Below, in pieces: positions 1 through 17,689 of a DNA stretch of 64,000 bases. This DNA comes from Trypanosoma brucei (taxonomy: Eukaryota): contig AL929603.2 of the NCBI GenBank assembly GCA_000002445.1, positions 640,001 through 704,000 of the forward strand, written 5' to 3'. The number at the start of each line of letters is the position of its first letter. Positions within the stretch are counted from its first letter, which is position 1. The position numbers and the translations under genes are program-made. The notes under the pieces were generated by a model, which saw nothing but the letters and a program-made list of their open reading frames with translations, had not been told where the DNA came from and did no database searches.

Positions 1-1278
1 AAACTTTCGCCCGCTGATTGCCCGACCTACACCTCAACATTGTTATCGGCGGAAGGAAGCACCACCGAGAATCTCAAATATAATCACCGTGGTCCCACCA
101 CCACTTTCAGCGCTACAGCTTCTAATCCCATCATCTTTCCCAATTAATATCCCCCTTACTCAAATATGCATCCCCCTGGGGCATGCCATCGTAATAGATA
201 ATATAAACCTTACCCCTCCACATCAGAAATGGAGGCATCATCCAAGTTATATCCCATGTTACAACCCACCCTCCTCATCCTCACAGGACATATCGTTTGT
301 TATCCAACCAGCAAGAGCGCAATATTCTCTCATGTCCCCCTTTTGTTTCTGGTCAGTCCAACAGTTGCAAAACTAACAAATTTCGACCCCGTATTCTTGT
401 GGTCGAGGAATGGAACAAAGCATATGCAACGCTCACTGAAAGCGGCATGACGCCACACTAGAGAAACTATACCAGCATCGATAGTAGTCAAACACTGGGT
501 GGGATAATAACAGCCAACATGTGCATCCAAATAACCCTTTTTCCTCCTATGCAAGCCTAAATCAGCCAACAGAAAACAAGAGGCAGCGCAATGATAACAA
601 AGGAAGGTTAGGGGGCACCACCTGTACATAACGAGAGCAGCAGCAAGCAACGGTAAAGGAAGGAGGTTGTGATGCTGCCAAATAGTTGGGAGCACTCAAC
701 AGCAGAAAATAAAACAAGAAAAGGTAAACAAAATGAAACGGTAAGAAAATGAAGAAAATAATAAGTAAGGTGCTCTGGAAGAAAATAAATATAATATGTA
801 GAGTACAACATTATGACTAAAGAACGAAACTACGAGAAAATAAAACACCATTGACATGGAGGAAAGTTAGACATCAAAAGAAAAGCACCAGCGGCCACAC
901 AGTGCGAGCACACGGGTAAGCTGAGTTTGCGTCTATTTGCACAATACGTGCTTTGACTTCCAAAGACGGACACAAGTGCGCGCTGATTTCATGAGTGAGG
1001 AACGAAGTGGTGTTGCAGATTTATAACAAAAGTCACAGAGGAGAAATAATAGGGTGGTAATATAAATAAAAGGGTAAGTTACGGCACCGAGAGTGACTTT
1101 TCACAATTTCTTGGAAAGTAGAAATAAAAGGAGCAATGCTCCGTACAACAATGTTGAGGTGCTGATGCAAAGGAAAACAACATATTCATGTATTTGTTAA
1201 GGGAGAAAAGTAATAAGAATTCGTTTTCAATATTATTGCACGGCCCACCTGACATTAGTGCCAACGATACGAGCCGCG

Positions 1279-3237
1279 TCAGGACCTCTTGGGCGCGATC
1301 CCGTTGCCCTCCGCATTGGGTGTCACATCGCTGTCCCCTTCACAGACAGTTTCTTTCCCCTCAGGGGAAACATCAGCCGCCACCTTCCTCACGGGTTTGC
1401 CGTCTCCATCCAACTCCTCGTCCATGCGAGCATCGGGGAGAAGAGTAAAGATGAGAGGGATCTGAATGCACGGTGCCACGAAGCCGGAAATGAGCACAAG
1501 CCACTTTACATTGGCGAAGTCACATGGCACCAGTGTTTTCACAGGCAGAGCATATTCCATTATAACTGACCCAAGGGAACTACCCACCGTGCTACCGAAA
1601 TTGCTCGATGCAGCAAGAATAGCGTACACAGTACTCTCGCTTCCACGAGGACACAACCGTGAAAGAATAATGGTTAACGGCATCCAGTTCATCATCCCGA
1701 TCACAGGAGATATGACGACATCGCAGCAGAAGTAAATCAAGTAGTCACTGACGTATGGCCGGTTCCATCGCATCACTATAATGAAGTCGAAGATGTTGGA
1801 GACGATGAGGAACACCAGTGTCAAGAAGTAAGTCATCCGATAAGTCTTTTTTGAAAGGAAGTAATTGAACAGCACGACACCCAGAGCTGAAGTGACACTT
1901 CCAACTGTTCCACCAACAGTCTGCAGGAAAAAAAGACTGAAGTGAGGTCCACCCGGATTGCAATCGGGTCCGCTCAGGAAGAACGGGGTGACAGCACCAC
2001 CAAAAGACACCGTAGACGCATTGTTCAAGTAACTGAACAGATTCACCTTCGCGACCGCCCACGACAGCGCATAGAAATTGAAAGAGCAGTGCCCCACGGA
2101 AACGACAGCCGCGGCAATGAGTAAATGCAGCCTCGATCCAAACAAGGAGGTTATGGCAACACCAACAACAAAGAATGCTATTAGCACGCTGTATATTGTC
2201 TCACGCTTGTTGCGCTCAAGGACCTCTTCGTTCATCTGGAACACACCGCAGCAGCACTCACGAGGCTCCCTGAACACAAATGGCTTCACAGCTGCCTCAC
2301 CGCCGTCAGCGTTAGGCCCCGCCACCGGCTCGCTGTTTGTCACTTGGCGCTCCACCATCCCACCATTTACGTCAATTGGATCATTGTCATCAGCCACCGG
2401 AGGGGTGTCCTTAGCCTCTTTTAACTTCTGCTCGTGGAGCACATGGGCATCGATGTACCGCTCCTCACGGTTGGGCAGTTCACCAAACCAATTGAACAGG
2501 AAGAATGGTGCCACCAGCAGCTGGACAGCGCTACCTATCATGGGAGATATCTGCGGTATGCCAGCGTCACCCAAAGGACCAACAATAACGGAAACAAAGA
2601 GACCAGCCAGGATAATGAACCACCAAACCCAACTCACCAGAGCAGGCCCTGGACCAGGCACACGGCGCATCATCCGGCTGTATAGTCCCTGCGATAGAAT
2701 GTCCGTACATGCCCTGCTGAGCCCAGAGAAGAAGAGGAACACGGAAGCAATTGCTGCACTCGATGGCTGCGCTGGGAGCAGAGCAAAGCCAAGGGAGAAT
2801 GCGGGACCGACGAGATTCGCCACAAACATGTACCACCGTTTGGTATAACCGAAGAACGGGAATATGTCGCTGATAGCAGCCAAAAGAGGCTTCACAGACC
2901 ACCCCATGCCGGCGATGTTAGTTAGCCGCTGGTAGACAAGACCCTCGACAGTGAAACGGTTCAAAAACATCGCAATAATGGATCCACCAACAAGTCCGTC
3001 AGCAAGACCCTTACACAAGAAATACGATAATCCAATGGAAAGCACGGGCTTAGGACCATAGCCCTCAGCTGCCTCCCCGAACAAGGGGATGTGCCGAAGA
3101 CACGGAACCTTGTTGAACAGGGCCCGTGCCTCGGGGTGCACAAACGTTGCCTCCTTAGATTCCTCACTGTGTAGCTCAGCGACGAGTACGGCATCACCAC
3201 CCCGCGCATCGAACGAACCATCTTCCTGTCGACCCAT
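1279..3237 (-). CDS. Pteridine / folate-biopterin transporter (FBT/BT1 family), 652 aa, copy 1
   Basis: A 652-aa ORF with many hydrophobic helices (e.g. VLSIGLSYFLCKGL, WWFIILAGLFVSVIVGPLG, IYSVLIAFFVVGVAITSLFG). Its length and cytosolic N-terminal tail are typical of trypanosomatid FBT transporters, to which ESAG10 is related. A purine-rich plus-strand stretch (a pyrimidine tract on the coding strand) lies ~60-100 nt upstream of the ATG. Family assignment is from memory and not searched. Confidence 0.8.
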   Translation of the reverse strand: MGRQEDGSFDARGGDAVLVAELHSEESKEATFVHPEARALFNKVPCLRHIPLFGEAAEGYGPKPVLSIGLSYFLCKGLADGLVGGSIIAMFLNRFTVEGLVYQRLTNIAGMGWSVKPLLAAISDIFPFFGYTKRWYMFVANLVGPAFSLGFALLPAQPSSAAIASVFLFFSGLSRACTDILSQGLYSRMMRRVPGPGPALVSWVWWFIILAGLFVSVIVGPLGDAGIPQISPMIGSAVQLLVAPFFLFNWFGELPNREERYIDAHVLHEQKLKEAKDTPPVADDNDPIDVNGGMVERQVTNSEPVAGPNADGGEAAVKPFVFREPRECCCGVFQMNEEVLERNKRETIYSVLIAFFVVGVAITSLFGSRLHLLIAAAVVSVGHCSFNFYALSWAVAKVNLFSYLNNASTVSFGGAVTPFFLSGPDCNPGGPHFSLFFLQTVGGTVGSVTSALGVVLFNYFLSKKTYRMTYFLTLVFLIVSNIFDFIIVMRWNRPYVSDYLIYFCCDVVISPVIGMMNWMPLTIILSRLCPRGSESTVYAILAASSNFGSTVGSSLGSVIMEYALPVKTLVPCDFANVKWLVLISGFVAPCIQIPLIFTLLPDARMDEELDGDGKPVRKVAADVSPEGKETVCEGDSDVTPNAEGNGIAPKRS

Positions 3238-5276
3238 CGTCAGCTTTTATGACCAATGCTTAGCTAACATTCACGAGCCACACACAAAACAATACGAAAA
3301 ACAAAGAGGTGAGAAGATATGTTGAGGAATCAAATAATAAAAGAAACGCACACACGAACCACAGGGCACCAACGTTTCAACAACACCGTGCCTCAGCATA
3401 ACTATGGCACACCAAAACCTCGCACACACAAATACACAAACACGTACTTGCGCATCGGGACATCAACCAACTCTGCGAAGTTAACATTAGAGTCGATTTC
3501 CACAGCCCCTTCCTGTCTCCAGAGGGTCCTTACAGCAACCATGATTAAACGACAAAGCGTCCCTCCACAGATATAGGGAAAATTAGGTAAATATCTGCAG
3601 TAGTCCATTTATAGCACGTTCATTCTTCACATGTCAGTTAGTGGGGGAAAGGTAACATGTACGTGACGGCCGGTCCTATTATCAAGAAGTAATAGAAAAG
3701 GCACTACATACGCGTAGCCACACAACTCATGATGTGAGGATATGCAACAACACTATGATTAGCAAAAATGATACAGGCATTCGCGAACTGACTCTTATGC
3801 CACGAAACGCCCATACACACCGAAACTGCAGGAGACATTCTGTTGCTGCTAGCCCCACGGTGGATGATGGGCCATCTCACACTCCCACAACTGTGCCTTA
3901 ATGTACAACACGGAAAGTACAGCAAGAAGACGCAGCGGCCACCAACTCTTTCGCAACGTTGCGTAACCACGTTGATATCCTCTCGGATCAGCAGAAAACT
4001 TTCGCCCGCTGATTGCCCGACCTACACCTCAACATTGTTATCGGCGGAAGGAAGCACCACCGAGAATCTCAAATATAATCACCGTGGTCCCACCACCACT
4101 TTCAGCGCTACAGCTTCTAATCCCATCATCTTTCCCAATTAATATCCCCCTTACTCAAATATGCATCCCCCTGGGGCATGCCATCGTAATAGATAATATA
4201 AACCTTACCCCTCCACATCAGAAATGGAGGCATCATCCAAGTTATATCCCATGTTACAACCCACCCTCCTCATCCTCACAGGACATATCGTTTGTTATCC
4301 AACCAGCAAGAGCGCAATATTCTCTCATGTCCCCCTTTTGTTTCTGGTCAGTCCAACAGTTGCAAAACTAACAAATTTCGACCCCGTATTCTTGTGGTCG
4401 AGGAATGGAACAAAGCATATGCAACGCTCACTGAAAGCGGCATGACGCCACACTAGAGAAACTATACCAGCATCGATAGTAGTCAAACACTGGGTGGGAT
4501 AATAACAGCCAACATGTGCATCCAAATAACCCTTTTTCCTCCTATGCAAGCCTAAATCAGCCAACAGAAAACAAGAGGCAGCGCAATGATAACAAAGGAA
4601 GGTTAGGGGGCACCACCTGTACATAACGAGAGCAGCAGCAAGCAACGGTAAAGGAAGGAGGTTGTGATGCTGCCAAATAGTTGGGAGCACTCAACAGCAG
4701 AAAATAAAACAAGAAAAGGTAAACAAAATGAAACGGTAAGAAAATGAAGAAAATAATAAGTAAGGTGCTCTGGAAGAAAATAAATATAATATGTAGAGTA
4801 CAACATTATGACTAAAGAACGAAACTACGAGAAAATAAAACACCATTGACATGGAGGAAAGTTAGACATCAAAAGAAAAGCACCAGCGGCCACACAGTGC
4901 GAGCACACGGGTAAGCTGAGTTTGCGTCTATTTGCACAATACGTGCTTTGACTTCCAAAGACGGACACAAGTGCGCGCTGATTTCATGAGTGAGGAACGA
5001 AGTGGTGTTGCAGATTTATAACAAAAGTCACGGAGGAGAAATAATAGGGTGGTAATATAAAAAAATAAAAGGGTAAGTTACGGCACCAAGAGTGACTTTT
5101 CACAATTTCTCGGGAAGGATAAATTAAAAGAACAATGCTCCGTACAACAATGTTGGAGTGCTGATGCAACAAAAACAACATATTCATGCGTTTGTTAAGA
5201 GAGAAAAGTAATAAGAATTCATTTTCAATATTATTGCACGGCCCACCTGACATTAGTGCCAACGATACGAGCCGCG

Positions 5277-7235
5277 TCAGGACCTCTTGGGCGCGATCCC
5301 GTTGCCCTCCGCATTGGGTGTCACATCGCTGTCCCCTTCACAGACAGTTTCTTTCCCCTCAGGGGAAACATCAGCCGCCACCTTCCTCACGGGTTTGCCG
5401 TCTCCATCCAACTCCTCGTCCATGCGAGCATCGGGGAGAAGAGTAAAGATGAGAGGGATCTGAATGCACGGTGCCACGAAGCCGGAAATGAGCACAAGCC
5501 ACTTTACATTGGCGAAGTCACATGGCACCAGTGTTTTCACAGGCAGAGCATATTCCATTATAACTGACCCAAGGGAACTACCCACCGTGCTACCGAAATT
5601 GCTCGATGCAGCAAGAATAGCGTACACAGTACTCTCGCTTCCACGAGGACACAACCGTGAAAGAATAATGGTTAACGGCATCCAGTTCATCATCCCGATC
5701 ACAGGAGATATGACGAGATCGCAGCAGAAGTAAATCAAGTAGTCACTGACGTATGGCCGGTTCCATCGCATCACTATAATGAAGTCGAAGATGTTGGAGA
5801 CGATGAGGAACACCAGTGTCAAGAAGTAAGTCATCCGATAAGTCTTTTTTGAAAGGAAGTAATTGAACAGCACGACACCCAGAGCTGAAGTGACACTTTC
5901 AACTGTTCCACCAACAGTCTGCAGGAAAAAAAGACTGAAGTGAGGTCCACCCGGATTGCAATCGGGTCCGCTCAGGAAGAACGGGGTGACAGCACCACCA
6001 AAAAATAACGTAGACGCATTGTTCAAGTAACTGAACAGATTCACCTTCGCGACCGCCCACGACAGCGCATAGAAATTGAAAGAGCAGTGCCCCACGGAAA
6101 CGACAGCCGCGGCAATGAGTAAATGCAGCCTCGATCCAAACAAGGAGGTTATGGCAACACCAACAACAAAGAATGCTATTAGCACGCTGTATATTGTCTC
6201 ACGCTTGTTGCGCTCAAGGACCTCTTCGTTCATCTGGAACACACCGCAGCAGCACTCACGAGGCTCCCTGAACACAAATGGCTTCACAGCTGCCTCACCG
6301 CCGTCAGCGTTAGGCCCCGCCACCGGCTCGCTGTTTGTCACTTGGCGCTCCACCATCCCACCATTTACGTCAATTGGATCATTGTCATCAGCCACCGGAG
6401 GGGTGTCCTTAGCCTCTTTTAACTTCTGCTCGTGGAGCACATGGGCATCGATGTACCGCTCCTCACGGTTGGGCAGTTCACCAAACCAATTGAACAGGAA
6501 GAATGGTGCCACCAGCAGCTGGACAGCGCTACCTATCATGGGAGATATCTGCGGTATGCCAGCGTCACCCAAAGGACCAACAATAACGGAAACAAAGAGA
6601 CCAGCCAGGATAATGAACCACCAAACCCAACTCACCAGAGCAGGCCCTGGACCAGGCACACGGCGCATCATCCGGCTGTATAGTCCCTGCGATAGAATGT
6701 CCGTACATGCCCTGCTGAGCCCAGAGAAGAAGAGGAACACGGAAGCAATTGCTGCACTCGATGGCTGCGCTGGGAGCAGAGCAAAGCCAAGGGAGAATGC
6801 GGGACCGACGAGATTCGCCACAAACATGTACCACCGTTTGGTATAACCGAAGAACGGGAATATGTCGCTGATAGCAGCCAAAAGAGGCTTCACAGACCAC
6901 CCCATGCCGGCGATGTTAGTTAGCCGCTGGTAGACAAGACCCTCAACACCGAGACGATCCAAAAACATCGCAATAATGGATCCACCAACAAGTCCGTCAG
7001 CAAGACCCTTACACAAGAAATACGATAATCCAATGGAAAGCACGGGCTTAGGACCATAGCCCTCAGCTGCCTCCCCGAACAAGGGGATGTGCCGAAGACA
7101 CGGAACCTTGTTGAACAGAGCCCGTGCCTCGGGGTGCACAAACGTTGCCTCCTTAGATTCCTCACTGTGTAGCTCAGCGACGAGTACGGCATCACCACCC
7201 CGCGCATCGAACGAACCATCTTCCTGTCGACCCAT
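5277..7235 (-). CDS. Pteridine / folate-biopterin transporter, 652 aa, copy 2
   Basis: It differs from copy 1 at about 6 residues (e.g. FLDRLGVEG vs FLNRFTVEG; NNASTLFFGG vs NNASTVSFGG) and has the same length and frame. Confidence 0.8.
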   Translation of the reverse strand: MGRQEDGSFDARGGDAVLVAELHSEESKEATFVHPEARALFNKVPCLRHIPLFGEAAEGYGPKPVLSIGLSYFLCKGLADGLVGGSIIAMFLDRLGVEGLVYQRLTNIAGMGWSVKPLLAAISDIFPFFGYTKRWYMFVANLVGPAFSLGFALLPAQPSSAAIASVFLFFSGLSRACTDILSQGLYSRMMRRVPGPGPALVSWVWWFIILAGLFVSVIVGPLGDAGIPQISPMIGSAVQLLVAPFFLFNWFGELPNREERYIDAHVLHEQKLKEAKDTPPVADDNDPIDVNGGMVERQVTNSEPVAGPNADGGEAAVKPFVFREPRECCCGVFQMNEEVLERNKRETIYSVLIAFFVVGVAITSLFGSRLHLLIAAAVVSVGHCSFNFYALSWAVAKVNLFSYLNNASTLFFGGAVTPFFLSGPDCNPGGPHFSLFFLQTVGGTVESVTSALGVVLFNYFLSKKTYRMTYFLTLVFLIVSNIFDFIIVMRWNRPYVSDYLIYFCCDLVISPVIGMMNWMPLTIILSRLCPRGSESTVYAILAASSNFGSTVGSSLGSVIMEYALPVKTLVPCDFANVKWLVLISGFVAPCIQIPLIFTLLPDARMDEELDGDGKPVRKVAADVSPEGKETVCEGDSDVTPNAEGNGIAPKRS

Positions 7236-9279
7236 CGTCAGCTTTTATGACCAATGCTTAGCTAACATTCACGAGCCACACACAAAACAATACGAAAAAC
7301 AAAGAGGTGAGAAGATATGTTGAGGAATCAAATAATAAAAGAAACGCACACACGAACCACAGGGCACCAACGTTTCAACAACACCGTGCCTCAGCATAAC
7401 TATGGCACACCAAAACCTCGCACACACAAATACACAAACACGTACTTGCGCATCGGGACATCAACCAACTCTGCGAAGTTAACATTAGAGTCGATTTCCA
7501 CAGCCCCTTCCTGTCTCCAGAGGGTCCTTACAGCAACCATGATTAAACGACAAAGCGTCCCTCCACAGATATAGGGAAAATTAGGTAAATATCTGCAGTA
7601 GTCCATTTATAGCACGTTCATTCTTCACATGTCAGTTAGTGGGGGAAAGGTAACATGTACGTGACGGCCGGTCCTATTATCAAGAAGTAATAGAAAAGGC
7701 ACTACATACGCGTAGCCACACAACTCATGATGTGAGGATATGCAACAACACTATGATTAGCAAAAATGATACAGGCATTCGCGAACTGACTCTTATGCCA
7801 CGAAACGCCCATACACACCGAAACTGCAGGAGACATTCTGTTGCTGCTAGCCCCACGGTGGATGATGGGCCATCTCACACTCCCACAACTGTGCCTTAAT
7901 GTACAACACGGAAAGTACAGCAAGAAGACGCAGCGGCCACCAACTCTTTCGCAACGTTGCGTAACCACGTTGATATCCTCTCGGATCAGCAGAAAACTTT
8001 CGCCCGCTGATTGCCCGACCTACACCTCAACATTGTTATCGGCGGAAGGAAGCACCACCGAGAATCTCAAATATAATCACCGTGGTCCCACCACCACTTT
8101 CAGCGCTACAGCTTCTAATCCCATCATCTTTCCCAATTAATATCCCCCTTACTCAAATATGCATCCCCCTGGGGCATGCCATCGTAATAGATAATATAAA
8201 CCTTACCCCTCCACATCAGAAATGGAGGCATCATCCAAGTTATATCCCATGTTACAACCCACCCTCCTCATCCTCACAGGACATATCGTTTGTTATCCAA
8301 CCAGCAAGAGCGCAATATTCTCTCATGTCCCCCTTTTGTTTCTGGTCAGTCCAACAGTTGCAAAACTAACAAATTTCGACCCCGTATTCTTGTGGTCGAG
8401 GAATGGAACAAAGCATATGCAACGCTCACTGAAAGCGGCATGACGCCACACTAGAGAAACTATACCAGCATCGATAGTAGTCAAACACTGGGTGGGATAA
8501 TAACAGCCAACATGTGCATCCAAATAACCCTTTTTCCTCCTATGCAAGCCTAAATCAGCCAACAGAAAACAAGAGGCAGCGCAATGATAACAAAGGAAGG
8601 TTAGGGGGCACCACCTGTACATAACGAGAGCAGCAGCAAGCAACGGTAAAGGAAGGAGGTTGTGATGCTGCCAAATAGTTGGGAGCACTCAACAGCAGAA
8701 AATAAAACAAGAAAAGGTAAACAAAATGAAACGGTAAGAAAATGAAGAAAATAATAAGTAAGGTGCTCTGGAAGAAAATAAATATAATATGTAGAGTACA
8801 ACATTATGACTAAAGAACGAAACTACGAGAAAATAAAACACCATTGACATGGAGGAAAGTTAGACATCAAAAGAAAAGCACCAGCGGCCACACAGTGCGA
8901 GCACACGGGTAAGCTGAGTTTGCGTCTATTTGCACAATACGTGCCTTGACTTCCAAAGACGGACACAAGTGCGCGCTGATTTCATGAGTGAGGAACGAAG
9001 TGGTGTTGCAGATTTATAACAAAAGTCACAGAGGAGAAATAATAGGGTGGTAATATAAAAAAATAAAAGGGTAAGTTACGGCACCAAGAGTGACTTTTCA
9101 CAATTTCTCGGGAAGGATAAATTAAAAGAACAATGCCCCGTACAACAATGTTGGAGTGCTGATACAACAAAGGAAAAACAACATATTCATGCGTTTGTTA
9201 ATAGAGAAAAGTAATAAGAATTCATTTTCAATATTATTGCACGGCCCACCTGACATTAGTGCCAACGATACGAGCCGCG

Positions 9280-11238
9280 TCAGGACCTCTTGGGCGCGAT
9301 CCCGTTGCCCTCCGCATTGGGTGTCACATCGCTGTCCCCTTCACAGACAGTTTCTTTCCCCTCAGGGGAAACATCAGCCGCCACCTTCCTCACGGGTTTG
9401 CCGTCTCCATCCAACTCCTCGTCCATGCGAGCATCGGGGAGAAGAGTAAAGATGAGAGGGATCTGAATGCACGGTGCCACGAAGCCGGAAATGAGCACAA
9501 GCCACTTTACATTGGCGAAGTCACATGGCACCAGTGTTTTCACAGGCAGAGCATATTCCATTATAACTGACCCAAGGGAACTACCCACCGTGCCGCCGAA
9601 ATTGCTCGATGCAGCAAGAATAGCGTACACAGTACTCTCGCTTCCACGAGGACACAACCGTGAAAGAATAATGGTTAACGGCATCCAGTGCATCATCCCG
9701 ATCACAGGAGATATGACGACATCGCAGCAGAAGTAAATCAAGTAGTCACTGACGTATGGCCGGTTCCATCGCATCACTATAATGAAGTCGAAGATGTTGG
9801 AGACGATGAGGAACACCAGTGTCAAGAAGTAAGTCATCCGATAAGTCTTTTTTGAAAGGAAGTAATTGAACAGCACGACACCCAGAGCTGAAGTGACACT
9901 TCCAACTGTTCCACCAACAGTCTGCAGGAAAAAAAGACTGAAGTGAGGTCCACCCGGATTGCAATCGGGTCCGGTCAGGAAGAACGGGGTGACAGCACCA
10001 CCAAAAGACACCGTAGACGCATTGTGCAAGTAACTGAACAGATTCACCTTCGCGACCGCCCACGACAGCGCATAGAAATTGAAAGAGCAGTGCCCCACGG
10101 AAACGACAGCCGCGGCAATGAGTAAATGCAGCCTCGATCCAAACAAGGAGGTTATGGCAACACCAACAACAAAGAATGCTATTAGCACGCTGTATATTGT
10201 CTCACGCTTGTTGCGCTCAAGGACCTCTTCGTTCATCTGGAACACACCGCAGCAGCACTCACGAGGCTCCCTGAACACAAATGGCTTCACAGCTGCCTCA
10301 CCGCCGTCAGCGTTAGGCCCCGCCACCGGCTCGCTGTTTGTCACTTGGCGCTCCACCATCCCACCATTTACGTCAATTAGATCATTGTCATCAGCCACCG
10401 GAGGGGTGTCCTTAGCCTCTTTTAACTTCTGCTCGTGGAGCACATGGGCATCGATGTACCGCTCCTCACGGTTGGGCAGTTCACCAAACCAATTGAACAG
10501 GAAGAATGGTGCCACCAGCAGCTGGACAGCGCTACCTATCATGGGAGATATCTGCGGTATGCCAGCGTCACCCAAAGGACCAACAATAACGGAAACAAAG
10601 AGACCAGCCAGGATAATGAACCACCAAACCCAACTCACCAGAGCAGGCCCTGGACCAGGCACACGGCGCATCATCCGGCTGTATAGTCCCTGCGATAGAA
10701 TGTCCGTACATGCCCTGCTGAGCCCAGAGAAGAAGAGGAACACGGAAGCAATTGCTGCACTCGATGGCTGCGCTGGGAGCAGAGCAAAGCCAAGGGAGAA
10801 TGCGGGACCGACGAGATTCGCCACAAACATGTACCACCGTTTGGTATAACCGAAGAACGGGAATATGTCGCTGATAGCAGCCAAAAGAGGCTTCACAGAC
10901 CACCCCATGCCGGCGATGTTAGTTAGCCGCTGGTAGACAAGACCCTCAACACCGAAACGGTTCAAAAACATCGCAATAATGGATCCACCAACAAGTCCGT
11001 TGGCAAGACCCTTACACAAGAAATACGATAATCCAATGGAAAGCACGGGCTTAGGACCATAGCCCTCAGCTGCCTCCCCGAACAAGGGGATGTGCCGAAG
11101 ACACGGAACCTTGTTGAACAGAGCCCGTGCCTCGGGGTGCACAAACGTTGCCTCCTTAGATTCCTCACTGTGTAGCTCAGCGACGAGTACGGCATCACCA
11201 CCCCGCGCATCGAACGAACCATCTTCCTGTCGACCCAT
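9280..11238 (-). CDS. Pteridine / folate-biopterin transporter, 652 aa, copy 3 (the copy nearest the strand-switch region)
   Basis: It differs from copies 1 and 2 at a few residues (GLANGLVGG, DDNDLIDV, MMHWMPL, SNFGGTVG). The unique flank begins ~670 bp upstream of its ATG. Confidence 0.8.
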   Translation of the reverse strand: MGRQEDGSFDARGGDAVLVAELHSEESKEATFVHPEARALFNKVPCLRHIPLFGEAAEGYGPKPVLSIGLSYFLCKGLANGLVGGSIIAMFLNRFGVEGLVYQRLTNIAGMGWSVKPLLAAISDIFPFFGYTKRWYMFVANLVGPAFSLGFALLPAQPSSAAIASVFLFFSGLSRACTDILSQGLYSRMMRRVPGPGPALVSWVWWFIILAGLFVSVIVGPLGDAGIPQISPMIGSAVQLLVAPFFLFNWFGELPNREERYIDAHVLHEQKLKEAKDTPPVADDNDLIDVNGGMVERQVTNSEPVAGPNADGGEAAVKPFVFREPRECCCGVFQMNEEVLERNKRETIYSVLIAFFVVGVAITSLFGSRLHLLIAAAVVSVGHCSFNFYALSWAVAKVNLFSYLHNASTVSFGGAVTPFFLTGPDCNPGGPHFSLFFLQTVGGTVGSVTSALGVVLFNYFLSKKTYRMTYFLTLVFLIVSNIFDFIIVMRWNRPYVSDYLIYFCCDVVISPVIGMMHWMPLTIILSRLCPRGSESTVYAILAASSNFGGTVGSSLGSVIMEYALPVKTLVPCDFANVKWLVLISGFVAPCIQIPLIFTLLPDARMDEELDGDGKPVRKVAADVSPEGKETVCEGDSDVTPNAEGNGIAPKRS

Positions 11239-14200
11239 CGTCAGCTTTTATGACCAATGCTTAGCTAACATTCACGAGCCACACACAAAACAACACGAAA
11301 AACAAAGAGGTGAGAAGATATGTTGAGGAATCAAATAATAAAAGAAACGCACACACGAACCACAGGGCACCAACGTTTCAACAACACCGTGCCTCAGCAT
11401 AACTATGGCACACCAAAACCTCGCACACACAAATACACAAACACGTACTTGCGCATCGGGACATCAACCAACTCTGCGAAGTTAACATTAGAGTCGATTT
11501 CCACAGCCCCTTCCTGTCTCCAGAGGGTCCTTACAGCAACCATGACTAAACGACAAAGCGTCCCTCCACAGATATAGGGAAAATTAGGTAAATATCTGCA
11601 GTAGTCCATTTATAGCACGTTCATTCTTCACATGTCAGTTAGTGGGGGAAAGGTAACATGTACGTGACGGCCGGTCCTATTATCAAGAAGTAATAGAAAA
11701 GGCACTACATACGCGTAGCCACACAACTCATGATGTGAGGATATGCAACAACACTATGATTAGCAAAAATGATACAGGCATTCGCGAACTGACTCTTATG
11801 CCACGAAACGCCCATACACACCGAAACTGCAGGAGACATTCTGTTGCTGCTAGCCCCACGGTGGATGATGGGCCATCTCACACTCCCACAACTGTGCCTT
11901 GATGTACAACACAGTCTTGCCAGCTAATTTCATTGATCTTTATAGGGGATAGAGGACTGTTTTTCGGTATGAATACTAATGTTATGATATCTTCGAGTTT
12001 GTTATCTGAATAATCTATGATCTCATTTCCTGTTGCGGAATAGGAAAGTACCAACCAACGCCATAATGTACCTACGCATTACAAGAATTTATTCCATGTT
12101 TAACTTCAGTGTCGTTCTCGGGCGCACTTAAGCATTCTTGCCGTTGCCGAGTATTCGCCAAATGTAATGTGTTTGAAGTGCCTTCTCTCCCCCCTCTTAA
12201 GCTCCTTACTAGTACATGTTTTGTGGCTTTGACTGTGATGTGATTCATGGGGGGCTGTTCTTCAATTCTGTTCAGTTTCTGGTGGCATGCAGGTGTTTTT
12301 CCAGGTATGTATTGCTTATCACCTCAGTTGCTCCTACCAATGGAACGCAAATGTGCGTTGCCTTTCAGTGTTATAGATGTGTCTGTCAGATTGCATGACA
12401 CGTATGTGCTACTTTATGAACATCTCCTTTTGAAATCCGTTGGCTCCAGCACCGCTATCACCACGTCTCTTTGTAAAATGCATCATGTAGGCTCCATCCA
12501 CATGACCTCCATTGTTCACTTCCCCACCACCACCCAACCCCCTCCCTTCACCTTTGGATGTCACCGTCCCCTATTGGTTAATGGATGCATCCGTCAGTAG
12601 TGGTTTTGTGACTGCCAGAGTTGGGGTGGTTTGACGGGGGTACTCTTCATTGCATCAATCCACTTTCAGCCAACCATCGATTTGTGAGGAGGTGATTCCG
12701 CTGGATCTTTGTCCTTTCATGCACTGCGCTGAAGTTGTGAGAACTGCTGAAGCATCATCCTCAAAAAAGAAGTGGCATGTAAAAGCTGATCCCGATCGCG
12801 CACCTGCGCTGCAGATCTCGACCGACGTGAAGCTACCTAATTCTTTCACCGTGGGCCTTCCAAGGGGTGTCGATCCACTGAGCGTTCCTGCCTTTTTTTT
12901 TTCTTCCACTCAAAGGAACTGGACCTCTTGTGGTTAAACAGCTCCAGGAGAAGTCACAGCCCTTTATCAGTGTCGTTTTATTCCACCACCCCCCCCCTCC
13001 CTCCCCTGCTGCTGCGCCCTGTCGCACATCTTCCTGCTACAGTATTTACCCCCACTGCTACCCACTCTTTTTTTTTCAGCCTGTCCAAAAAGCCGTCGTG
13101 AGTCCAAACGCGTATTTTTAGCTAAGTCGGTAATGTACGCCACGTTTTCAGCGCCCCAGAGTTGTCTGCCAGTCCTCTCTATTGCGTGCGAAATGTCTGG
13201 ACCGTATTGACAGTACAGCGGGAGCTGAGAGATCTCCACAGACCACCCCGTCTCCGTCCGATATCGAAAGTCCGTGTATGTACCACCCGGCAAACCCACC
13301 TAGAAAAAAAAAAAGAAGGCCCGCAAACAAAAGATGGTAACTACCTCGTCATGCAGCGCAAATTGCGCCCCGGCGAAACAGTCTCCTCGTAGTCCTCCTG
13401 GCATATTTTTTTTCTGTTTGGGTAATGAACAGCCTTCTTCGTAGCAACCTTTTTTCCTCACGCTATTGTAAAAGGAGCTAATGGTAAAAGAAAACTACCC
13501 ATTATGCAGCGGTTGAGGCCGATACTTCCGTAACCACCCGCGTCGTTTCCTTTCGCATTTCATCCGCTTCGGAATTCGTGAACAGGGCTCCTGTCCCTAA
13601 CTCCAGCCCACTCAAGTGACAATATGTTAACGTCCCCTTGTTGCGGTACCATTCGCTACAGCTCCTCTTGAGCAGCTATCTCTCACGATGAGTGCTTCGA
13701 AGAATGCCGCTGCTGCTCTGAAGAGACGGCCCTGTCTGATCACATGTTACTTCCCAGGATTCCCCATAAAGTAGTTAATTCTTCTTTCCCTCTCTAGAGG
13801 AGCGTCTCCAACAAAAACGCCTCATTTAACAGATCGAACTAAGCCCTTAGTTGTTTGTGTCTCGGTGGGGGAACTCTATTAGGTCCTTATGTTTTTCTAG
13901 GGAACTAATTTCGATAATTTTTCGGAGTGCTCCCCAACCGATGTTGATTCTTTCCCTCACCCGATGTTGGCAAGCCAATTTTTTTCTTTCCAAACGGCGT
14001 TATCCCGCCCCATTGGCCACCCCCAACCCACACCAGCTACGGTACAATGTACTCTTTTCCGTTGTCAGAGTTTTGCCTATAAGTTTGAGTTACCACCTCT
14101 CTACAGGACATGCTTGTCCCCATCGATTGATGTTTCCGCCTAAAGACCTGCAAGAAACATCTATCCCGGTGTTCTACGTGGATCCAGTAACGCTAACAGG

Positions 14201-15599
14201 GTCACTGTGTTATGAACTGAACCGTTTTCAGTCAGTTACAGGGCTATAACGAATAAGGGAGCATTCCCCCGCCTATATCCCTAAGTTGTGCTTCCCAGTA
14301 AATCTACCGAGTTGCTTCGTTGCGAGTATTCTTTGTTTCCAAGCTTACTGTGCTCACATCGTCTTCTTCTTTGTTTTTATGATTAGCCTTTCAAAGCCCA
14401 GGAAGCTATGGACAGGACGTGACTTAAGGTCGGAACTGGAATCACCTCGAACACAGACCTTTGAAGGGGCAAGAGCCTGTAGTGGTCCGAATAACATCTA
14501 TCCATGACCTGTAGTGCTTTGTCTTAACTTTTGAGAGTTCGCTTCCCCAGACATAAACACTTTTTTTGGATTAGATTTCTTTTTAAACTGTTTCATGTCC
14601 GACCTCCGGATGTTTCCACTCGTGCTTCGCCCTCGGGTGCTGAATCCCAATATTTCCCTTTCCCCGGGTCTCAAAGTTTCTGGGGCAGGTAGTTGGTTTC
14701 CCTCTTTGTCACTTGGTCCTTCGGACCACTCGAGTAGCATGTTGATCTGTTACGCACAGCGCAGGAGCATCGGTAACACCGTGCAGTGCTCGAAGGAAGT
14801 TGCGAATTTTTCTTTTTATATTCGCTTTTTGAATTGCCTGGTGACTGGAGTCATCTTCCTTTACTTGGACCCCATACTGCTATTTCCAAATTCTCAATTC
14901 CCTGTCCGTGGGCTTGCCCTCGCCACCTACATGGCTCAGAAGTACTCATGCAGCGTGCCTTCCAGTCAAGCATGTTCTTACAGGAAACATCCTCTGGCCA
15001 AGTTGCTCTTCTCCATAGCAGAGAAGTGTGGCACGTTTTTCCCAGTTCAAATTCCCCCTTGATAGATGATGAAAACACCACACTACAGGGCGCCAGCGGT
15101 TTTTCGGATGACATTGTTAGTATGTACCCCATCGTCCCTTCACATGAGTGGATACTTTCCTCTCGCCCTGAAACCACTTTCAATCAGTTTTTCATACGCG
15201 CACACACACCAAAACCATACCTGCCGAAGACGTCGACGAGAGGCAGGGCCGCGTCGGTTTGGCAGCTGGTGCTGGGGCGGACCTGGCATCTTGGATAGCG
15301 GGACAGTCTCGCCACGGTGCGGATCGTCAGTTTTGTTGATCTTCCAGTTGTGTTTACAAAGTGGGGGTCGCACCCGCAGTTCGTCCACGAAAGACACAGC
15401 CCTAGTCGGAAAACTCGGAAACCGTGTCCGTTTCACCTTCGCTTCTTAGAGTCATTGCACAAGCCGGGCGACGAGTCGGTAAGTTACAGTTTTCGAGCAT
15501 TTGCCCTTGCGCAACCTGGTTTGATGGGGAGGTTTCATTTCCTCTCTCTTTTTTTTTTCTTTATTTGGAAGGAGGAGGATTATGTGCGAACGTGAGCCC

Positions 15600-15900
15600 A
15601 CGTATGCTCGCCTCCCGTTATGGCCCGTCAACGAGGCGAAAAATGGTCGGCGTGTCAACCGTTTTGCATTGCAGGCGCCCGCGCGCGAGTCTCCGCTGTA
15701 GTTGTTGTTATTGTTTTTGCAGAGTTCTACTCGCGCCGTCGTGAGAGTCAGACACCCGCGGCCGTAGCCGCAAGCCGCGACACAAGACACTTTTCGGTCG
15801 CAAAAGTACCGCCGCGCGGGGCAACATGGCGCGAAAAGGCGGAGCCAAGAAATCATGGAGGGTGGCTGCTGCTTAAGCGGCCGCGGTGACTGAAAGGGGT
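15600..15900. other. CpG-rich, palindrome-rich island inside the strand-switch region. It may be a structured ncRNA or another cis element.
   Basis: There is a local run of CG-rich palindromes: gcgcgcgagt...actcgcgccg (an 8-bp stem), cgcggccgtagccgcaagccgcg, gccgcgcgggg...cgcgaaaaggcgg and gcggccgcgg. This contrasts with the AT/pyrimidine-rich intergenic DNA elsewhere in the window. Confidence 0.3.
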
Positions 15901-16523
15901 GTGGTGCAACCGCGCAAATTCGGGGACTAACACCGGGGGTACTCTTGAAGCAAGCTGTTCACCACGGGCAACAACTTGAAGCACGAGTACTCGGACATGA
16001 CGTTGCATGCCGCTGAGCGGAAAGCGTGTGAGTGCCCATTTCACTGTTACCCTTTACCCGGGTATTCTTTCGCGAAGGCTCAAGCCTGCAAACGGTTGCT
16101 GCTTTATCAGCAACCTTGGAGAACCTGAAGGGAAGCTACAGTATGTACTTTGGTGCCGTCATGTGTGCCGCTGATGTTATCCTTCTACTCTCGGTATTTT
16201 GATTGGAGCAGCAGCAGTGAGCCCACATGCGCTAGTTACACGCACATGGAATTAATATGAGCTTACTAAAATAAGTGAGGTGCCCCATCTGCTAACATGT
16301 AAGGGAAATGGGTTTGCACGGACCCCTTATCCCATTCCAGTAGTAGGGGTTAAACCACACGTGTGTGCAGGAACCCGTAACTGCGTTTCCTTTGATAATG
16401 ACCCTATAAAAAGGAATAAGAAGATGGTTTAATGAGTCTAAACTCCTAAATCTGTGTGGGGAAGTGAGCGAATGATGTTAAATTGATACCCGCCTATGAA
16501 CCTGAGCTATCTCGTTGAACTGA

Positions 16524-16564
16524 ATCTCTCCTTTCTGGCATCTGTCTCTGCATCTTGTCATTAG
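16524..16564 (+). promoter_or_regulatory. Polypyrimidine tract plus AG, a putative trans-splice acceptor for the ORF at 16593
   Basis: The sequence tctctcctttctggcatctgtctctgcatcttgtcattAG lies 29 nt upstream of the ATG. Confidence 0.45.
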
Positions 16565-16592
16565 CGCTGTTGGAAACCCCCATACATCAACA

Positions 16593-17333
16593 ATGAAACA
16601 TGTTTCTGAAATGTTCATCCCTGGCATGACATTATCGCACCTTGTTTCTCCCTTGCTCAGCATGCCAACTGCCACGAATCGTTTCTACGCACTTTACGGC
16701 CATTATAGCGTGCGTGAGGGGGATAGTGATGCAACAGAAAGCTCATTGATAGTTGAGGCCGTAGTGAGAGTCGTGTTACCCCTACATGCAGCGCCGCCAG
16801 AGGAGACAAAATTTATAGGTTTTGCTTCCGTGAAAAAGTCCAGTCCACACAAACTCTCATATGAAGAGACAAGGTTGCTTCGAGGGGATACTGAACCCGC
16901 AGAGTCATTCTTGCAAAAAAGTGATCGGTCCTACCCAATGTTGCTGCTTTTAGTGACAACACCTCTCGAGGTCCCTGTAGCAAAGAGTACAAAAAAGGTG
17001 GAATACAGTGTCTTTGAGTGCAAAACAGGCTCAGCGGACTTTTCTGAAAAAGCGATACCCCTTAAGGTAGATAACATGGTCGACTCTTTTTCCGCGTTTG
17101 TCCGGCTCAGCAATTTGGGGAGTCATGCTCTGGTTCGCAAGCAGTCCTCACCACCTACGCAGAGTTCACCCTCAGCGAACGAACTCAGTTTTCAATCCTC
17201 CATTAGCCAGTTAGAAGTGGCGAGTGCTAAAAGGCAGACGCTTCTAAAGCGTTTGGCCGAAGTGGAACGACTCCTTGAGCGTAAACAAACGGGGATGCTG
17301 AGAGCAGATGAACAGAAGCCCAACCGTATTTGA
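16593..17333 (+). CDS. Hypothetical protein, 246 aa, with a C-terminal coiled-coil segment. It may be the first gene of the rightward polycistron.
   Basis: An ORF with an upstream pyrimidine tract plus AG, non-repetitive composition and a C-terminal heptad-like segment (QLEVASAKRQTLLKRLAEVERLLERKQ). I recognise no family. Confidence 0.4.
   Translation: MKHVSEMFIPGMTLSHLVSPLLSMPTATNRFYALYGHYSVREGDSDATESSLIVEAVVRVVLPLHAAPPEETKFIGFASVKKSSPHKLSYEETRLLRGDTEPAESFLQKSDRSYPMLLLLVTTPLEVPVAKSTKKVEYSVFECKTGSADFSEKAIPLKVDNMVDSFSAFVRLSNLGSHALVRKQSSPPTQSSPSANELSFQSSISQLEVASAKRQTLLKRLAEVERLLERKQTGMLRADEQKPNRI

Positions 17334-17659: not shown

Positions 17660-17689
<30 letters not shown>
17660..17689. repeat. 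(TA)15 microsatellite
   Basis: A direct read of atatatat... Confidence 0.95.

What the first reader, a model, noticed from the sequence alone, without database searches (positions are those of the whole stretch)
1..11912. Head-to-tail array of at least 3 pteridine/folate-biopterin transporter genes at the start of a leftward transcription unit
Three 652-aa minus-strand ORFs recur with a ~3997-bp period and ~99% identity. The window begins on a unit boundary, so the true copy number is unknown and could be larger. The 83 nt at 3913-3995 occur at the copy1/2 and copy2/3 junctions but not after copy 3, which defines the array end at 11912 next to the strand-switch region. FBT-family transporters take up folate and biopterin, and ESAG10 in VSG expression sites belongs to the same family. 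Tandem amplification of transporters is a classic trypanosomatid route to expression-level change and drug-response variation (e.g. antifolates), and copy number here is likely polymorphic between strains.
Basis: partly seen in the sequence, partly recalled or inferred. Interest (0 to 1): 0.55.

Follow-up and report, generated by a model that had tools for sequence, protein, structure and literature searches.

The report
Known T. brucei pteridine-transporter gene array

Summary
Three minus-strand ORFs of 652 aa (1279-3237, 5277-7235, 9280-11238) recur every 3,995-4,003 nt at about 99% identity, and the repeat ends at 11912.

The proteins are exact matches to T. b. brucei TREU927 chromosome 1 proteins XP_001218979, XP_001218982 and XP_001218985. 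These are the 'pteridine transporter, putative' genes Tb927.1.2820, Tb927.1.2850 and Tb927.1.2880. They match Pfam BT1 (7e-116) and TIGR00788 fbt (3e-107), and the predicted structure has an MFS fold.

The array is already in the literature: as a three-gene tandem array, as a mosaic recombining array, as copy-number polymorphic, and as a target of DRBD3 and TblncRNA-23 regulation. It was not selected in antifolate RNAi screens, and its substrate remains untested.

- The array is three periods plus one extra 139-nt element, R-J-B-R-J-B-R-J-B-R. By synteny it extends only about 223 nt beyond the window start.
- One T. b. equiperdum assembly has four units.
- Relatives show a convergent strand switch just downstream, so the array is probably a complete small transcription unit.
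- The chromosome 10 paralogue holds the ancestral syntenic locus, so the chromosome 1 array is derived.

Interest is low and the feature is already known.

The parts
1..3995 (-). Repeat unit 1: body B 1-3772, element R 3773-3911, junction segment J 3912-3995
   Evidence: Self-BLAST and the repeat finder. Boundaries were read from the sequence.
3996..7993 (-). Repeat unit 2: B 3996-7770, R 7771-7909, J 7910-7993
7994..11912 (-). Repeat unit 3: B 7994-11773, R 11774-11912. It has no J, and this is the end of the array nearest the strand switch.
1279..3237 (-). CDS copy 1, 652 aa. By accession order it is Tb927.1.2820 (CAJ16453 / XP_001218979).
   Evidence: Exact sequence match. Pfam BT1 7e-116 and TIGR00788 3.4e-107.
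5277..7235 (-). CDS copy 2, 652 aa. It is Tb927.1.2850 (CAJ16462 / XP_001218982).
   Evidence: Exact sequence match.
9280..11238 (-). CDS copy 3, 652 aa. It is Tb927.1.2880 (CAJ16465 / XP_001218985).
   Evidence: Exact sequence match.
3773..3911 (.). 139-nt element R, also at 7771-7909 and 11774-11912 (0-1 mismatch). In relatives a further copy lies at the far end of the array, so the array is n periods plus one R.
3912..3995 (.). 84-nt segment J, found only between units and identical at 7910-7993. It is absent after unit 3.
951..1278 (-). Variable proximal part of the 3' UTR (equivalents about 4946-5276 and 8944-9279). 9.5% of columns vary between copies, against 0% in 1-950.
   Evidence: The published poly(A) site lies 622 nt after the stop codon (PMC2504296), which is about window position 660.
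3262..3345 (-). Pyrimidine-rich tract and candidate AG splice-acceptor sites upstream of the copy 1 ATG, repeated in units 2 and 3. Inferred, not mapped.
   Evidence: Sequence reading.
11913..16592 (.). Divergent strand-switch region between the array and the first rightward gene (16593-17333, 246 aa). It contains no tRNA, no Rfam match and only short ORFs.

Best explanation
This is the constitutive tandem array of three putative pteridine transporter genes on Trypanosoma brucei brucei TREU927 chromosome 1 (Tb927.1.2820, Tb927.1.2850, Tb927.1.2880).

The protein (shown). [quoted passage not shown]

The array (shown). Units of about 4 kb lie head to tail. The overall architecture is R-J-B repeated, closed by one extra 139-nt R. 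The copies are kept about 99% alike, yet they are mosaic. This is the pattern expected from unequal crossing-over and gene conversion between units. The same processes change copy number: three units in TREU927 and four in one T. b. equiperdum assembly.

Transcription (inferred from relatives). The array sits between a divergent and a convergent strand switch. It would then be a self-contained three-gene RNA polymerase II unit.

Expression (from the literature). Output is set by gene dosage and post-transcriptionally through the 3' UTR. DRBD3 binds and stabilises the mRNAs, TblncRNA-23 pairs with the 3' UTR, and the mRNAs rise about 4-fold in late procyclic forms.

Function (inferred, about 50% likely). 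The proteins import unconjugated pterins such as biopterin, which this pteridine auxotroph must salvage. Folate and classical antifolates enter through FT1-3 on chromosome 8.

Origin (inferred). The array is a derived paralogue of the syntenically conserved chromosome 10 gene. It arose before the T. brucei / T. congolense split.
For: Identity.
- All three proteins are exact matches to TREU927 chromosome 1 accessions, in window order.

Family and fold.
- Pfam PF03092 scores 387.9 bits over profile positions 1-430 of 432.
- TIGR00788 scores 359 bits against a cut-off of 216.
- The AF2 model has pLDDT 75 and pTM 0.75.
- All 50 listed Foldseek PDB hits are MFS transporters.

Array structure.
- define the units.
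- The IVM-t1 array is 16,136 nt, which equals 4 x 3,999 + 139.
- The same far boundary is seen in DAL972, IVM-t1 and OVI.

Mosaicism.
- Substitutions cluster in multi-nucleotide patches.
- CDS positions 238 and 286 violate the four-gamete test.
- Isoforms are shared across subspecies.
- The published PHI test gives p<0.001 (PMC2854126).

Transcription unit.
- Strand composition flips at about 11.9 kb.
- In relatives the downstream genes (ubiquitin-like, Lipase_3) lie on the opposite strand.

Regulation.
- PMC2504296, PMC4214818, PMC5879877 and PMC12008373.

Not an antifolate route.
- PMC5114424.

Origin.
- The chromosome 10 gene shares its TruD ... BT1 ... Cullin_binding neighbourhood with the single-copy genes of T. 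grayi and T. melophagium.
- The NJ tree pairs the chromosome 1 array with T. congolense FT3.
Against: - No substrate has been measured for these proteins. PMC5114424 says explicitly that biopterin transport by them remains to be established.
- Leishmania BT1, the characterised biopterin carrier, was not retrieved in either homology search. Orthology to it is therefore untested.
- In the NJ tree both Trypanosoma clades sit apart from all Leishmaniinae sequences. The name 'pteridine transporter' therefore cannot be transferred by orthology.
- The claim that the array is a complete transcription unit rests on synteny with relatives, because the sequence to the left lies outside the window. No chromatin or transcription-start data were examined.
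- The four-unit count comes from one assembly in which two copies carry 1-nt deletions. Its accuracy in this region is therefore uncertain.
- The NJ tree has no bootstrap support values.
Confidence: 0.85

Rival explanations
1. The array encodes folate/antifolate carriers, and its copy number modulates the antifolate response. This is the drug-response angle the first reader suggested.
For: The proteins belong to the same Pfam and TIGR family as the folate carriers. Some databases name close relatives 'folate transporter', for example in T. equiperdum and T. congolense FT3.
Against: Genome-wide RNAi screens with methotrexate and raltitrexed selected FT1-3 on chromosome 8. They did not select the chromosome 1 or chromosome 10 genes. 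[quoted passage not shown] The array is only 40-41% identical to FT1-3 and ESAG10 and falls in a separate clade.
Confidence: 0.07
2. The chromosome 1 paralogues have acquired a substrate other than pterins or folate. Candidates include S-adenosylmethionine, as for Leishmania AdoMetT1, or another metabolite needed in late insect stages.
For: - The FBT family includes a specific AdoMet carrier (cited in PMC5114424).
- The chromosome 1 lineage is a derived duplicate and has the longest branch in its clade.
- pN/pS between copies is 0.63-0.95.
- A near-invariant Gly96 is Thr in copy 1 and in all DAL972 and IVM-t1 copies.
- Expression is stage-regulated.
- T. congolense FT3, the closest orthologue, gave about 2-fold diminazene sensitisation when expressed in T. 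brucei (bioRxiv 10.1101/2020.07.28.224543).
Against: There is no direct evidence for any alternative substrate. The many invariant charged and structural residues of the family are retained. T. brucei must take up pterins, and no other candidate carrier is known apart from this clade.
Confidence: 0.25
3. The three copies are an assembly artefact, with the true locus holding either one copy or many more.
For: Repeats of this kind are hard to assemble. DAL972 has a 100-N gap inside the array and a 4,354-nt stretch duplicated at 100% identity. The OVI assembly holds a single unit, and its contig ends 606 nt beyond it.
Against: The three TREU927 units differ from one another at defined sites, with 12-16 nt differences in the CDS and indels in the 3' UTR. 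An independent chromosome-level assembly resolves four units with the same boundaries. Three copies are reported in independent papers.
Confidence: 0.03
4. The array is a recent, strain-specific adaptive amplification, not an old constitutive array.
For: The units are about 99% identical, and 950 nt of each unit are 100% identical. Copy number differs between strains.
Against: The array is present, with the same boundaries, in T. b. brucei, T. b. gambiense and T. equiperdum. The same isoform-defining variants occur in different subspecies. High identity is expected from concerted evolution (PMC2854126).
Confidence: 0.05

Closest known systems
T. brucei putative pteridine transporters Tb927.1.2820 / .2850 / .2880 (chromosome 1 tandem array)
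   Same: They are identical. The three window proteins match the TREU927 accessions residue for residue. Published descriptions give three nearly identical tandem genes (PMC2504296, PMC5114424, PMC2854126).
   Different: Nothing differs. Details added here are the R-J-B architecture, the four-unit variant, the convergent strand switch downstream, and the derived status relative to the chromosome 10 gene.
Tb927.10.9080 (single-copy putative pteridine transporter, chromosome 10)
   Same: It is in the same family and the same Trypanosoma clade, at 57% identity. It is also bound and regulated by DRBD3 (PMC2504296).
   Different: It is single copy and embedded in a long co-directional unit. Its gene neighbourhood is conserved in T. 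grayi and T. melophagium. It therefore occupies the ancestral locus, whereas the chromosome 1 array sits alone between two strand switches.
T. brucei folate transporters FT1-3 (Tb927.8.3620/3630/3650) and ESAG10
   Same: They share the FBT/BT1 family and MFS fold. FT1-3 are likewise a three-gene tandem cluster (PMC5114424).
   Different: They are only 40-41% identical and fall in a separate clade. FT1-3 carry folate and classical antifolates and dominate antifolate RNAi screens, whereas the chromosome 1 array does not (PMC5114424).
Leishmania BT1 (biopterin transporter), FT1/FT5 (folate) and AdoMetT1
   Same: They are founding members of the FBT family. The best Leishmania hits to the array are FT5-like proteins at 40-43% identity.
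   Different: One-to-one orthology was not shown. BT1 itself was not retrieved. The Leishmaniinae sequences cluster apart from both Trypanosoma clades. Substrate specificity therefore cannot be transferred.
Other T. brucei core tandem arrays with concerted evolution (tubulin, histone H3, hexose, adenosine and amino-acid transporters)
   Same: These are head-to-tail units with high identity, sequence mosaics and copy-number differences between strains (PMC2854126, PMC2481433).
   Different: This array is small (three or four units). It appears to make up an entire transcription unit rather than lying inside a long one.

Membership tests
Folate-biopterin transporter family (Pfam BT1 PF03092; TIGR00788; TC 2.A.71) | Full-length match to the family profile above the curated cut-off | tested here: met
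   PF03092 scores 387.9 bits (cut-off 22) over profile positions 1-430 of 432. TIGR00788 scores 359.2 bits (cut-off 216.4).
Folate-biopterin transporter family (Pfam BT1 PF03092; TIGR00788; TC 2.A.71) | Major-facilitator fold: two helical bundles joined by a central loop | tested here: met
   The AF2 model has pLDDT 75.1 and pTM 0.75, with a disordered loop at 278-322. All 50 listed Foldseek PDB hits are MFS transporters (EfpA, SV2A, SPNS2, GLUT1, PiPT, XylE, PepT), with probability 1.00 and TM-score (normalised by target length) of about 0.45-0.67. The exact number of membrane helices was not settled. No solved relative was found by sequence.
Folate-biopterin transporter family (Pfam BT1 PF03092; TIGR00788; TC 2.A.71) | Conserved family residues retained | tested here: met
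   About 118 invariant columns across 12 trypanosomatid FBT proteins are kept in all three copies. The exception is near-invariant Gly96, which is Thr in copy 1.
Folate-biopterin transporter family (Pfam BT1 PF03092; TIGR00788; TC 2.A.71) | Transport of folate, biopterin or a related compound | not testable with these tools
   The literature states that the substrate of these four genes has not been established (PMC5114424).
Biopterin transporter BT1 orthologue (Leishmania BT1) | One-to-one orthology with Leishmania BT1 by phylogeny or synteny | tested here: inconclusive
   BT1 was not among the proteins returned by either search. In the NJ tree the Trypanosoma sequences group apart from all Leishmaniinae sequences retrieved.
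T. brucei antifolate/folate carriers (FT1-3 / ESAG10 group) | High identity to FT1-3 (ESAG10 is 84-91% identical) and membership of the same clade | tested here: not met
   The array is 40-41% identical to FT1-3 and ESAG10 and falls in a separate clade.
T. brucei antifolate/folate carriers (FT1-3 / ESAG10 group) | Loss of function confers methotrexate or raltitrexed resistance | not testable with these tools
   The published RNAi screens did not select the chromosome 1 genes (PMC5114424).
Trypanosomatid tandem gene array under concerted evolution | Head-to-tail units on the same strand with near-identical coding and flanking sequence | tested here: met
Trypanosomatid tandem gene array under concerted evolution | Mosaic or recombinant copies | tested here: met
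   Four-gamete violation between CDS nt 238 and 286. Substitutions form clustered multi-nucleotide patches, and isoforms are shared across subspecies. This agrees with PHI p<0.001 in PMC2854126.
Trypanosomatid tandem gene array under concerted evolution | Copy number varies between strains | tested here: met
   Three units in TREU927. Four in T. b. equiperdum IVM-t1 (16,136 nt = 4 periods + R). DAL972 and OVI are unresolved. The literature reports the same (PMC2481433). The caveat is that these are assembly-based counts.

The most novel reading that the evidence does not exclude
The chromosome 1 array may be a Salivarian-specific, relocated duplicate of the ancestral chromosome 10 gene. It would form its own miniature RNA polymerase II transcription unit, bounded by a divergent strand switch on one side. 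On the other side would be a convergent strand switch that carries a 286-nt inverted repeat. It may also have shifted substrate or role away from simple pterin salvage, for example to a late-insect-stage nutrient or a drug-relevant cation. If so, the array would be a natural test case for locus-level control, by transcription or by gene dosage, of a nutrient carrier in an organism thought to lack gene-specific Pol II control.
Probability: 0.15. Interest if true: 0.4.

Novelty: already known. Interest (0 to 1): 0.1.

Why it matters
T. brucei cannot make pteridines and depends on salvage, so the carriers are of physiological and possible drug-delivery interest. The substrate of this array is still unmeasured.

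The locus itself is annotated in the reference genome. Its tandem structure, recombination, polymorphism and mRNA regulation are all published. The small additions made here are useful for anyone designing knockouts or counting copies, but they do not change the picture. Those additions are the unit architecture closed by an extra 139-nt element, a four-unit variant, the likely status as a self-contained transcription unit, and the derived origin relative to chromosome 10.

Tried and rejected
- Exact-protein contig look-ups with the window proteins failed, so TREU927 itself appears not to be indexed. The sequence left of the window was therefore inferred from DAL972, IVM-t1 and OVI.
- A second homology search, using a 12-sequence profile, returned the same about 35 proteins and no Leishmania BT1. 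Orthology to BT1 remains open.
- I tested whether the variant patches in copy 2 (residues 93-96) were copied from the chromosome 10 paralogue. The chromosome 10 protein reads QRFGV and copy 2 reads DRLGV, so there is no support.
- tRNA and Rfam scans found nothing in the window or in the convergent region of DAL972.
- Tandem Repeats Finder reported only an (AT)15 repeat. Its longest period is 500, so it cannot see the 4-kb units.
- A Kyte-Doolittle window count of membrane helices gave overlapping, unusable segments. I relied on the AF2 model and Foldseek instead.
- ORFs between the inverted-repeat arms gave only sub-threshold C2H2 zinc-finger matches. The retroelement idea was not pursued.
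- The assembly-artefact and recent-amplification readings were rejected for the reasons given under the rival explanations.
Full report
OBSERVATION

The window holds three minus-strand ORFs of 652 aa at 1279-3237, 5277-7235 and 9280-11238. They lie in direct repeats with start-to-start spacings of 3,995, 3,998 and 4,003 nt. Self-BLAST aligns 1-7909 with 3996-11912 at 99.2% identity. It finds no other repeat in the 64 kb.

The coding copies differ at 12-16 nucleotides and 7-12 residues. They are therefore three distinct sequences.

The junction-only segment exists, but it is 84 nt (3912-3995 and 7910-7993, identical) and not 83. After ...GTACAACAC at 11912 the sequence diverges.

IDENTITY

The three proteins are exact matches to T. 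brucei brucei TREU927 chromosome 1 entries named 'pteridine transporter, putative'. In window order they are CAJ16453/XP_001218979, CAJ16462/XP_001218982 and CAJ16465/XP_001218985. The 90% cluster holds no further TREU927 accession.

The literature names the genes Tb927.1.2820, Tb927.1.2850 and Tb927.1.2880. It describes them as three nearly identical tandem genes (PMC5114424; PMC2504296). The window is therefore a piece of TREU927 chromosome 1, and the feature is annotated.

FAMILY

- Pfam BT1 matches over its whole length (E 7e-116).
- TIGR00788 'folate/biopterin family MFS transporter' scores 359 bits against a cut-off of 216.
- An AlphaFold2 model built on a 12-sequence alignment has pLDDT 75 and pTM 0.75, with a disordered central loop at 278-322.
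- All 50 listed Foldseek hits in the PDB are major-facilitator transporters.
- No solved relative is detectable by sequence.

Membership of the FBT family is met on every sequence and fold criterion. The transported substrate cannot be tested with these tools.

ARRAY ARCHITECTURE AND COPY NUMBER

Each unit consists of a body B (3' region, CDS and upstream region), a 139-nt element R and the 84-nt segment J. In the window the order is B-R-J, B-R-J, B-R.

Three relatives were compared with the window.
- T. b. gambiense DAL972.
- T. b. equiperdum IVM-t1.
- T. equiperdum OVI.

In all three, homology continues to the left of window position 1 through J and one more R, and then stops. The whole array is therefore R-J-B repeated n times plus a closing R.

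In IVM-t1 the array measures 16,136 nt, which is 4 x 3,999 + 139. Either R pre-existed as a flanking direct repeat that served unequal crossing-over, or the terminal R is the stump of a lost unit. The data do not distinguish these.

Copy number by assembly:
- TREU927 has three units.
- IVM-t1 has four units. Copies 2 and 4 carry single-base deletions that may be sequencing errors.
- DAL972 has three annotated copies, but also a 100-N gap and a 4,354-nt stretch duplicated at 100% identity, so its count is unsafe.
- OVI has one unit next to a contig end.

Earlier comparative work on chromosome I already listed the pteridine-transporter array among the few copy-number-polymorphic arrays of the diploid core (PMC2481433).

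SEQUENCE VARIATION

Across the three TREU927 units the variation is very uneven.

| Segment (unit 1 coordinates) | Variable columns |
|---|---|
| 1-950 | 0 of 950 |
| 951-1278 (328 nt just 3' of the stop codon) | 32 of 336 |
| CDS | 20 of 1,959 |
| Upstream region and R | 3 of 674 |

pN/pS between copies is 0.63-0.95.

Across eleven copies from four genomes, substitutions cluster in multi-nucleotide patches at codons 79-80, 93-97, 410-411, 434 and 548-549. CDS positions 238 and 286 show all four haplotypes. The same patches recur in different subspecies and at different positions in the array. This is the mosaic pattern of gene conversion. It agrees with the published PHI test (p<0.001; three copies in each subspecies, two shared isoforms; PMC2854126).

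TRANSCRIPTIONAL CONTEXT

The + strand changes from purine-rich to pyrimidine-rich at about 11,900-12,000. Every supported gene from 16593 to 62331 is on the + strand. These include a WD40 protein with DUF7048/7051, a PPR protein, an M20 peptidase, an RNA ligase, a tRNA methyltransferase, alpha-SNAP, separase, a kinase, a CHORD protein, a RabGAP and an AAA ATPase.

In DAL972 and IVM-t1 the next real genes beyond the array lie on the opposite strand. They are a 403-aa ubiquitin-like protein and a 539-aa class 3 lipase. By synteny, the array is probably the entire leftward unit, closed by a convergent strand switch. This step is inferred, because that region is outside the window.

FUNCTION AND REGULATION FROM THE LITERATURE

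- Genome-wide RNAi screens with methotrexate and raltitrexed selected FT1-3 on chromosome 8. [quoted passage not shown] The authors note that biopterin transport by these four genes remains to be shown (PMC5114424).
- The mRNAs are bound and stabilised by DRBD3, and the poly(A) site lies 622 nt after the stop codon (PMC2504296).
- The mRNAs rise about 4-fold in late procyclic forms (PMC4214818; PMC5879877).
- TblncRNA-23 pairs with their 3' UTR and lowers their level (PMC12008373).
- T. congolense FT3, the closest orthologue in my tree, gave about 2-fold diminazene sensitisation when expressed in T. brucei (bioRxiv 10.1101/2020.07.28.224543).

EVOLUTION

A neighbour-joining tree of 36 trypanosomatid FBT proteins was built. 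It has no support values.
- One Trypanosoma clade holds T. grayi, T. melophagium, T. congolense 'PT' with T. brucei chromosome 10, and T. congolense FT3 with the chromosome 1 array.
- A second clade holds the T. cruzi proteins, FT1-3/ESAG10 and T. congolense FT2.
- All Leishmaniinae sequences fall outside both clades.

The chromosome 10 gene shares its neighbourhood (TruD ... BT1 ... Cullin_binding) with the single-copy genes of T. grayi and T. melophagium. Chromosome 10 is therefore the ancestral locus and the chromosome 1 array is a derived duplicate. Since T. congolense has an FT3 orthologue, the duplication is older than the T. brucei / T. congolense split.

Leishmania BT1 was not retrieved. 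The label 'pteridine' cannot be justified by orthology.

VERDICT

Four corrections apply.
1. The reference has exactly three copies.
2. The junction segment is 84 nt.
3. The array is probably a complete transcription unit and not only the start of one.
4. The antifolate link belongs to the chromosome 8 paralogues and ESAG10, not to this array.

The most likely mechanism is a constitutive array of FBT permease genes kept alike and resized by recombination between units. Output would be set by gene dosage and by 3' UTR-mediated control. The proteins probably import pterins, though that assignment is only about even odds. The feature is already known and of low interest.

Noticed in passing
Outside the window, just left of position 1. 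L001 (DAL972) 13400-13685 and 15598-15883; IVM-t1 CM010672.1 537684-537969 and 535488-535773, lying within loci L007 and L008.: A 286-nt inverted repeat sits in the convergent region beyond the array. It is 100% identical in DAL972 and 98.95% in IVM-t1. Its inner 69 nt are the first 69 nt of element R (window 3773-3841 and equivalents). The 1.9 kb between the arms carries overlapping ORFs with sub-threshold C2H2 zinc-finger matches, possibly a retroelement relic.
   Followed up: partly
window 951-1278 versus 1-950 (and equivalents in units 2 and 3): The first 328 nt of the 3' UTR are 9.5% variable between copies, including 4-5-nt indels. The next 950 nt are 100% identical in all three units. 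The copies may therefore differ in 3' UTR-mediated regulation.
   Followed up: partly
window 2950-2952 (codon 96 of copy 1): Copy 1, and all DAL972 and IVM-t1 copies, encode Thr at residue 96 through a two-base change. Copies 2 and 3 and nine other aligned FBT proteins have Gly there.
   Followed up: no
L001 5833-5932; L001 1479-5832 = 5933-10286: The DAL972 assembly has a 100-N gap inside the array. The gap is flanked by a 4,354-nt stretch duplicated at 100% identity. The published count of three copies for T. b. gambiense therefore rests on an unresolved assembly.
   Followed up: yes
IVM-t1 CM010672.1 543405-545363 and 551404-553362 (both in locus L009; the first also in L007 and L008): Copies 2 and 4 of the four-unit T. 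b. equiperdum array each have a 1-nt deletion, at CDS nt 397 (AAA to AA) and nt 454. Each truncates the ORF at residue 188. They are either real pseudogenes or long-read errors.
   Followed up: partly
window about 4560-4660, minus strand (and equivalents): A pyrimidine-rich tract followed by AG dinucleotides lies immediately after the published poly(A) position, 1.3 kb upstream of the next ATG. It could be an extra trans-splice site giving a long 5' UTR or an intergenic transcript.
   Followed up: no
window 2078-2848, 6076-6846, 10079-10849 (+); 3319-3576, 7317-7574, 11320-11577 (+); 3864-4142, 7862-8140 (+): Three sets of opposite-strand ORFs occur. A 256-aa ORF lies inside each CDS, and 85-aa and 92-aa ORFs lie in the spacers. 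The latter two are annotated as genes in other assemblies and have no Pfam hit on record there. The 92-aa ORF spans the R-J-B junction. All are probably spurious.
   Followed up: partly
window 16593-62331 (+): This is one long rightward unit of ordinary housekeeping genes. It includes a WD40 protein with DUF7048/7051, a PPR protein, an M20 peptidase, a T4 Rnl2-like RNA ligase, a tRNA U5-methyltransferase, alpha-SNAP, separase, a protein kinase, a CHORD protein, a RabGAP-TBC protein and an AAA ATPase. The whole window has no tRNA and no Rfam match. An (AT)15 microsatellite lies at 17660-17689.
   Followed up: partly
L011 (T. melophagium), L012 (T. grayi), L013 (DAL972 chromosome 10): The single-copy FBT gene lies in a conserved block: large protein, TruD, two unnamed proteins, BT1, Cullin_binding and so on. 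This marks chromosome 10 as the ancestral locus of the 'pteridine transporter' clade.
   Followed up: yes
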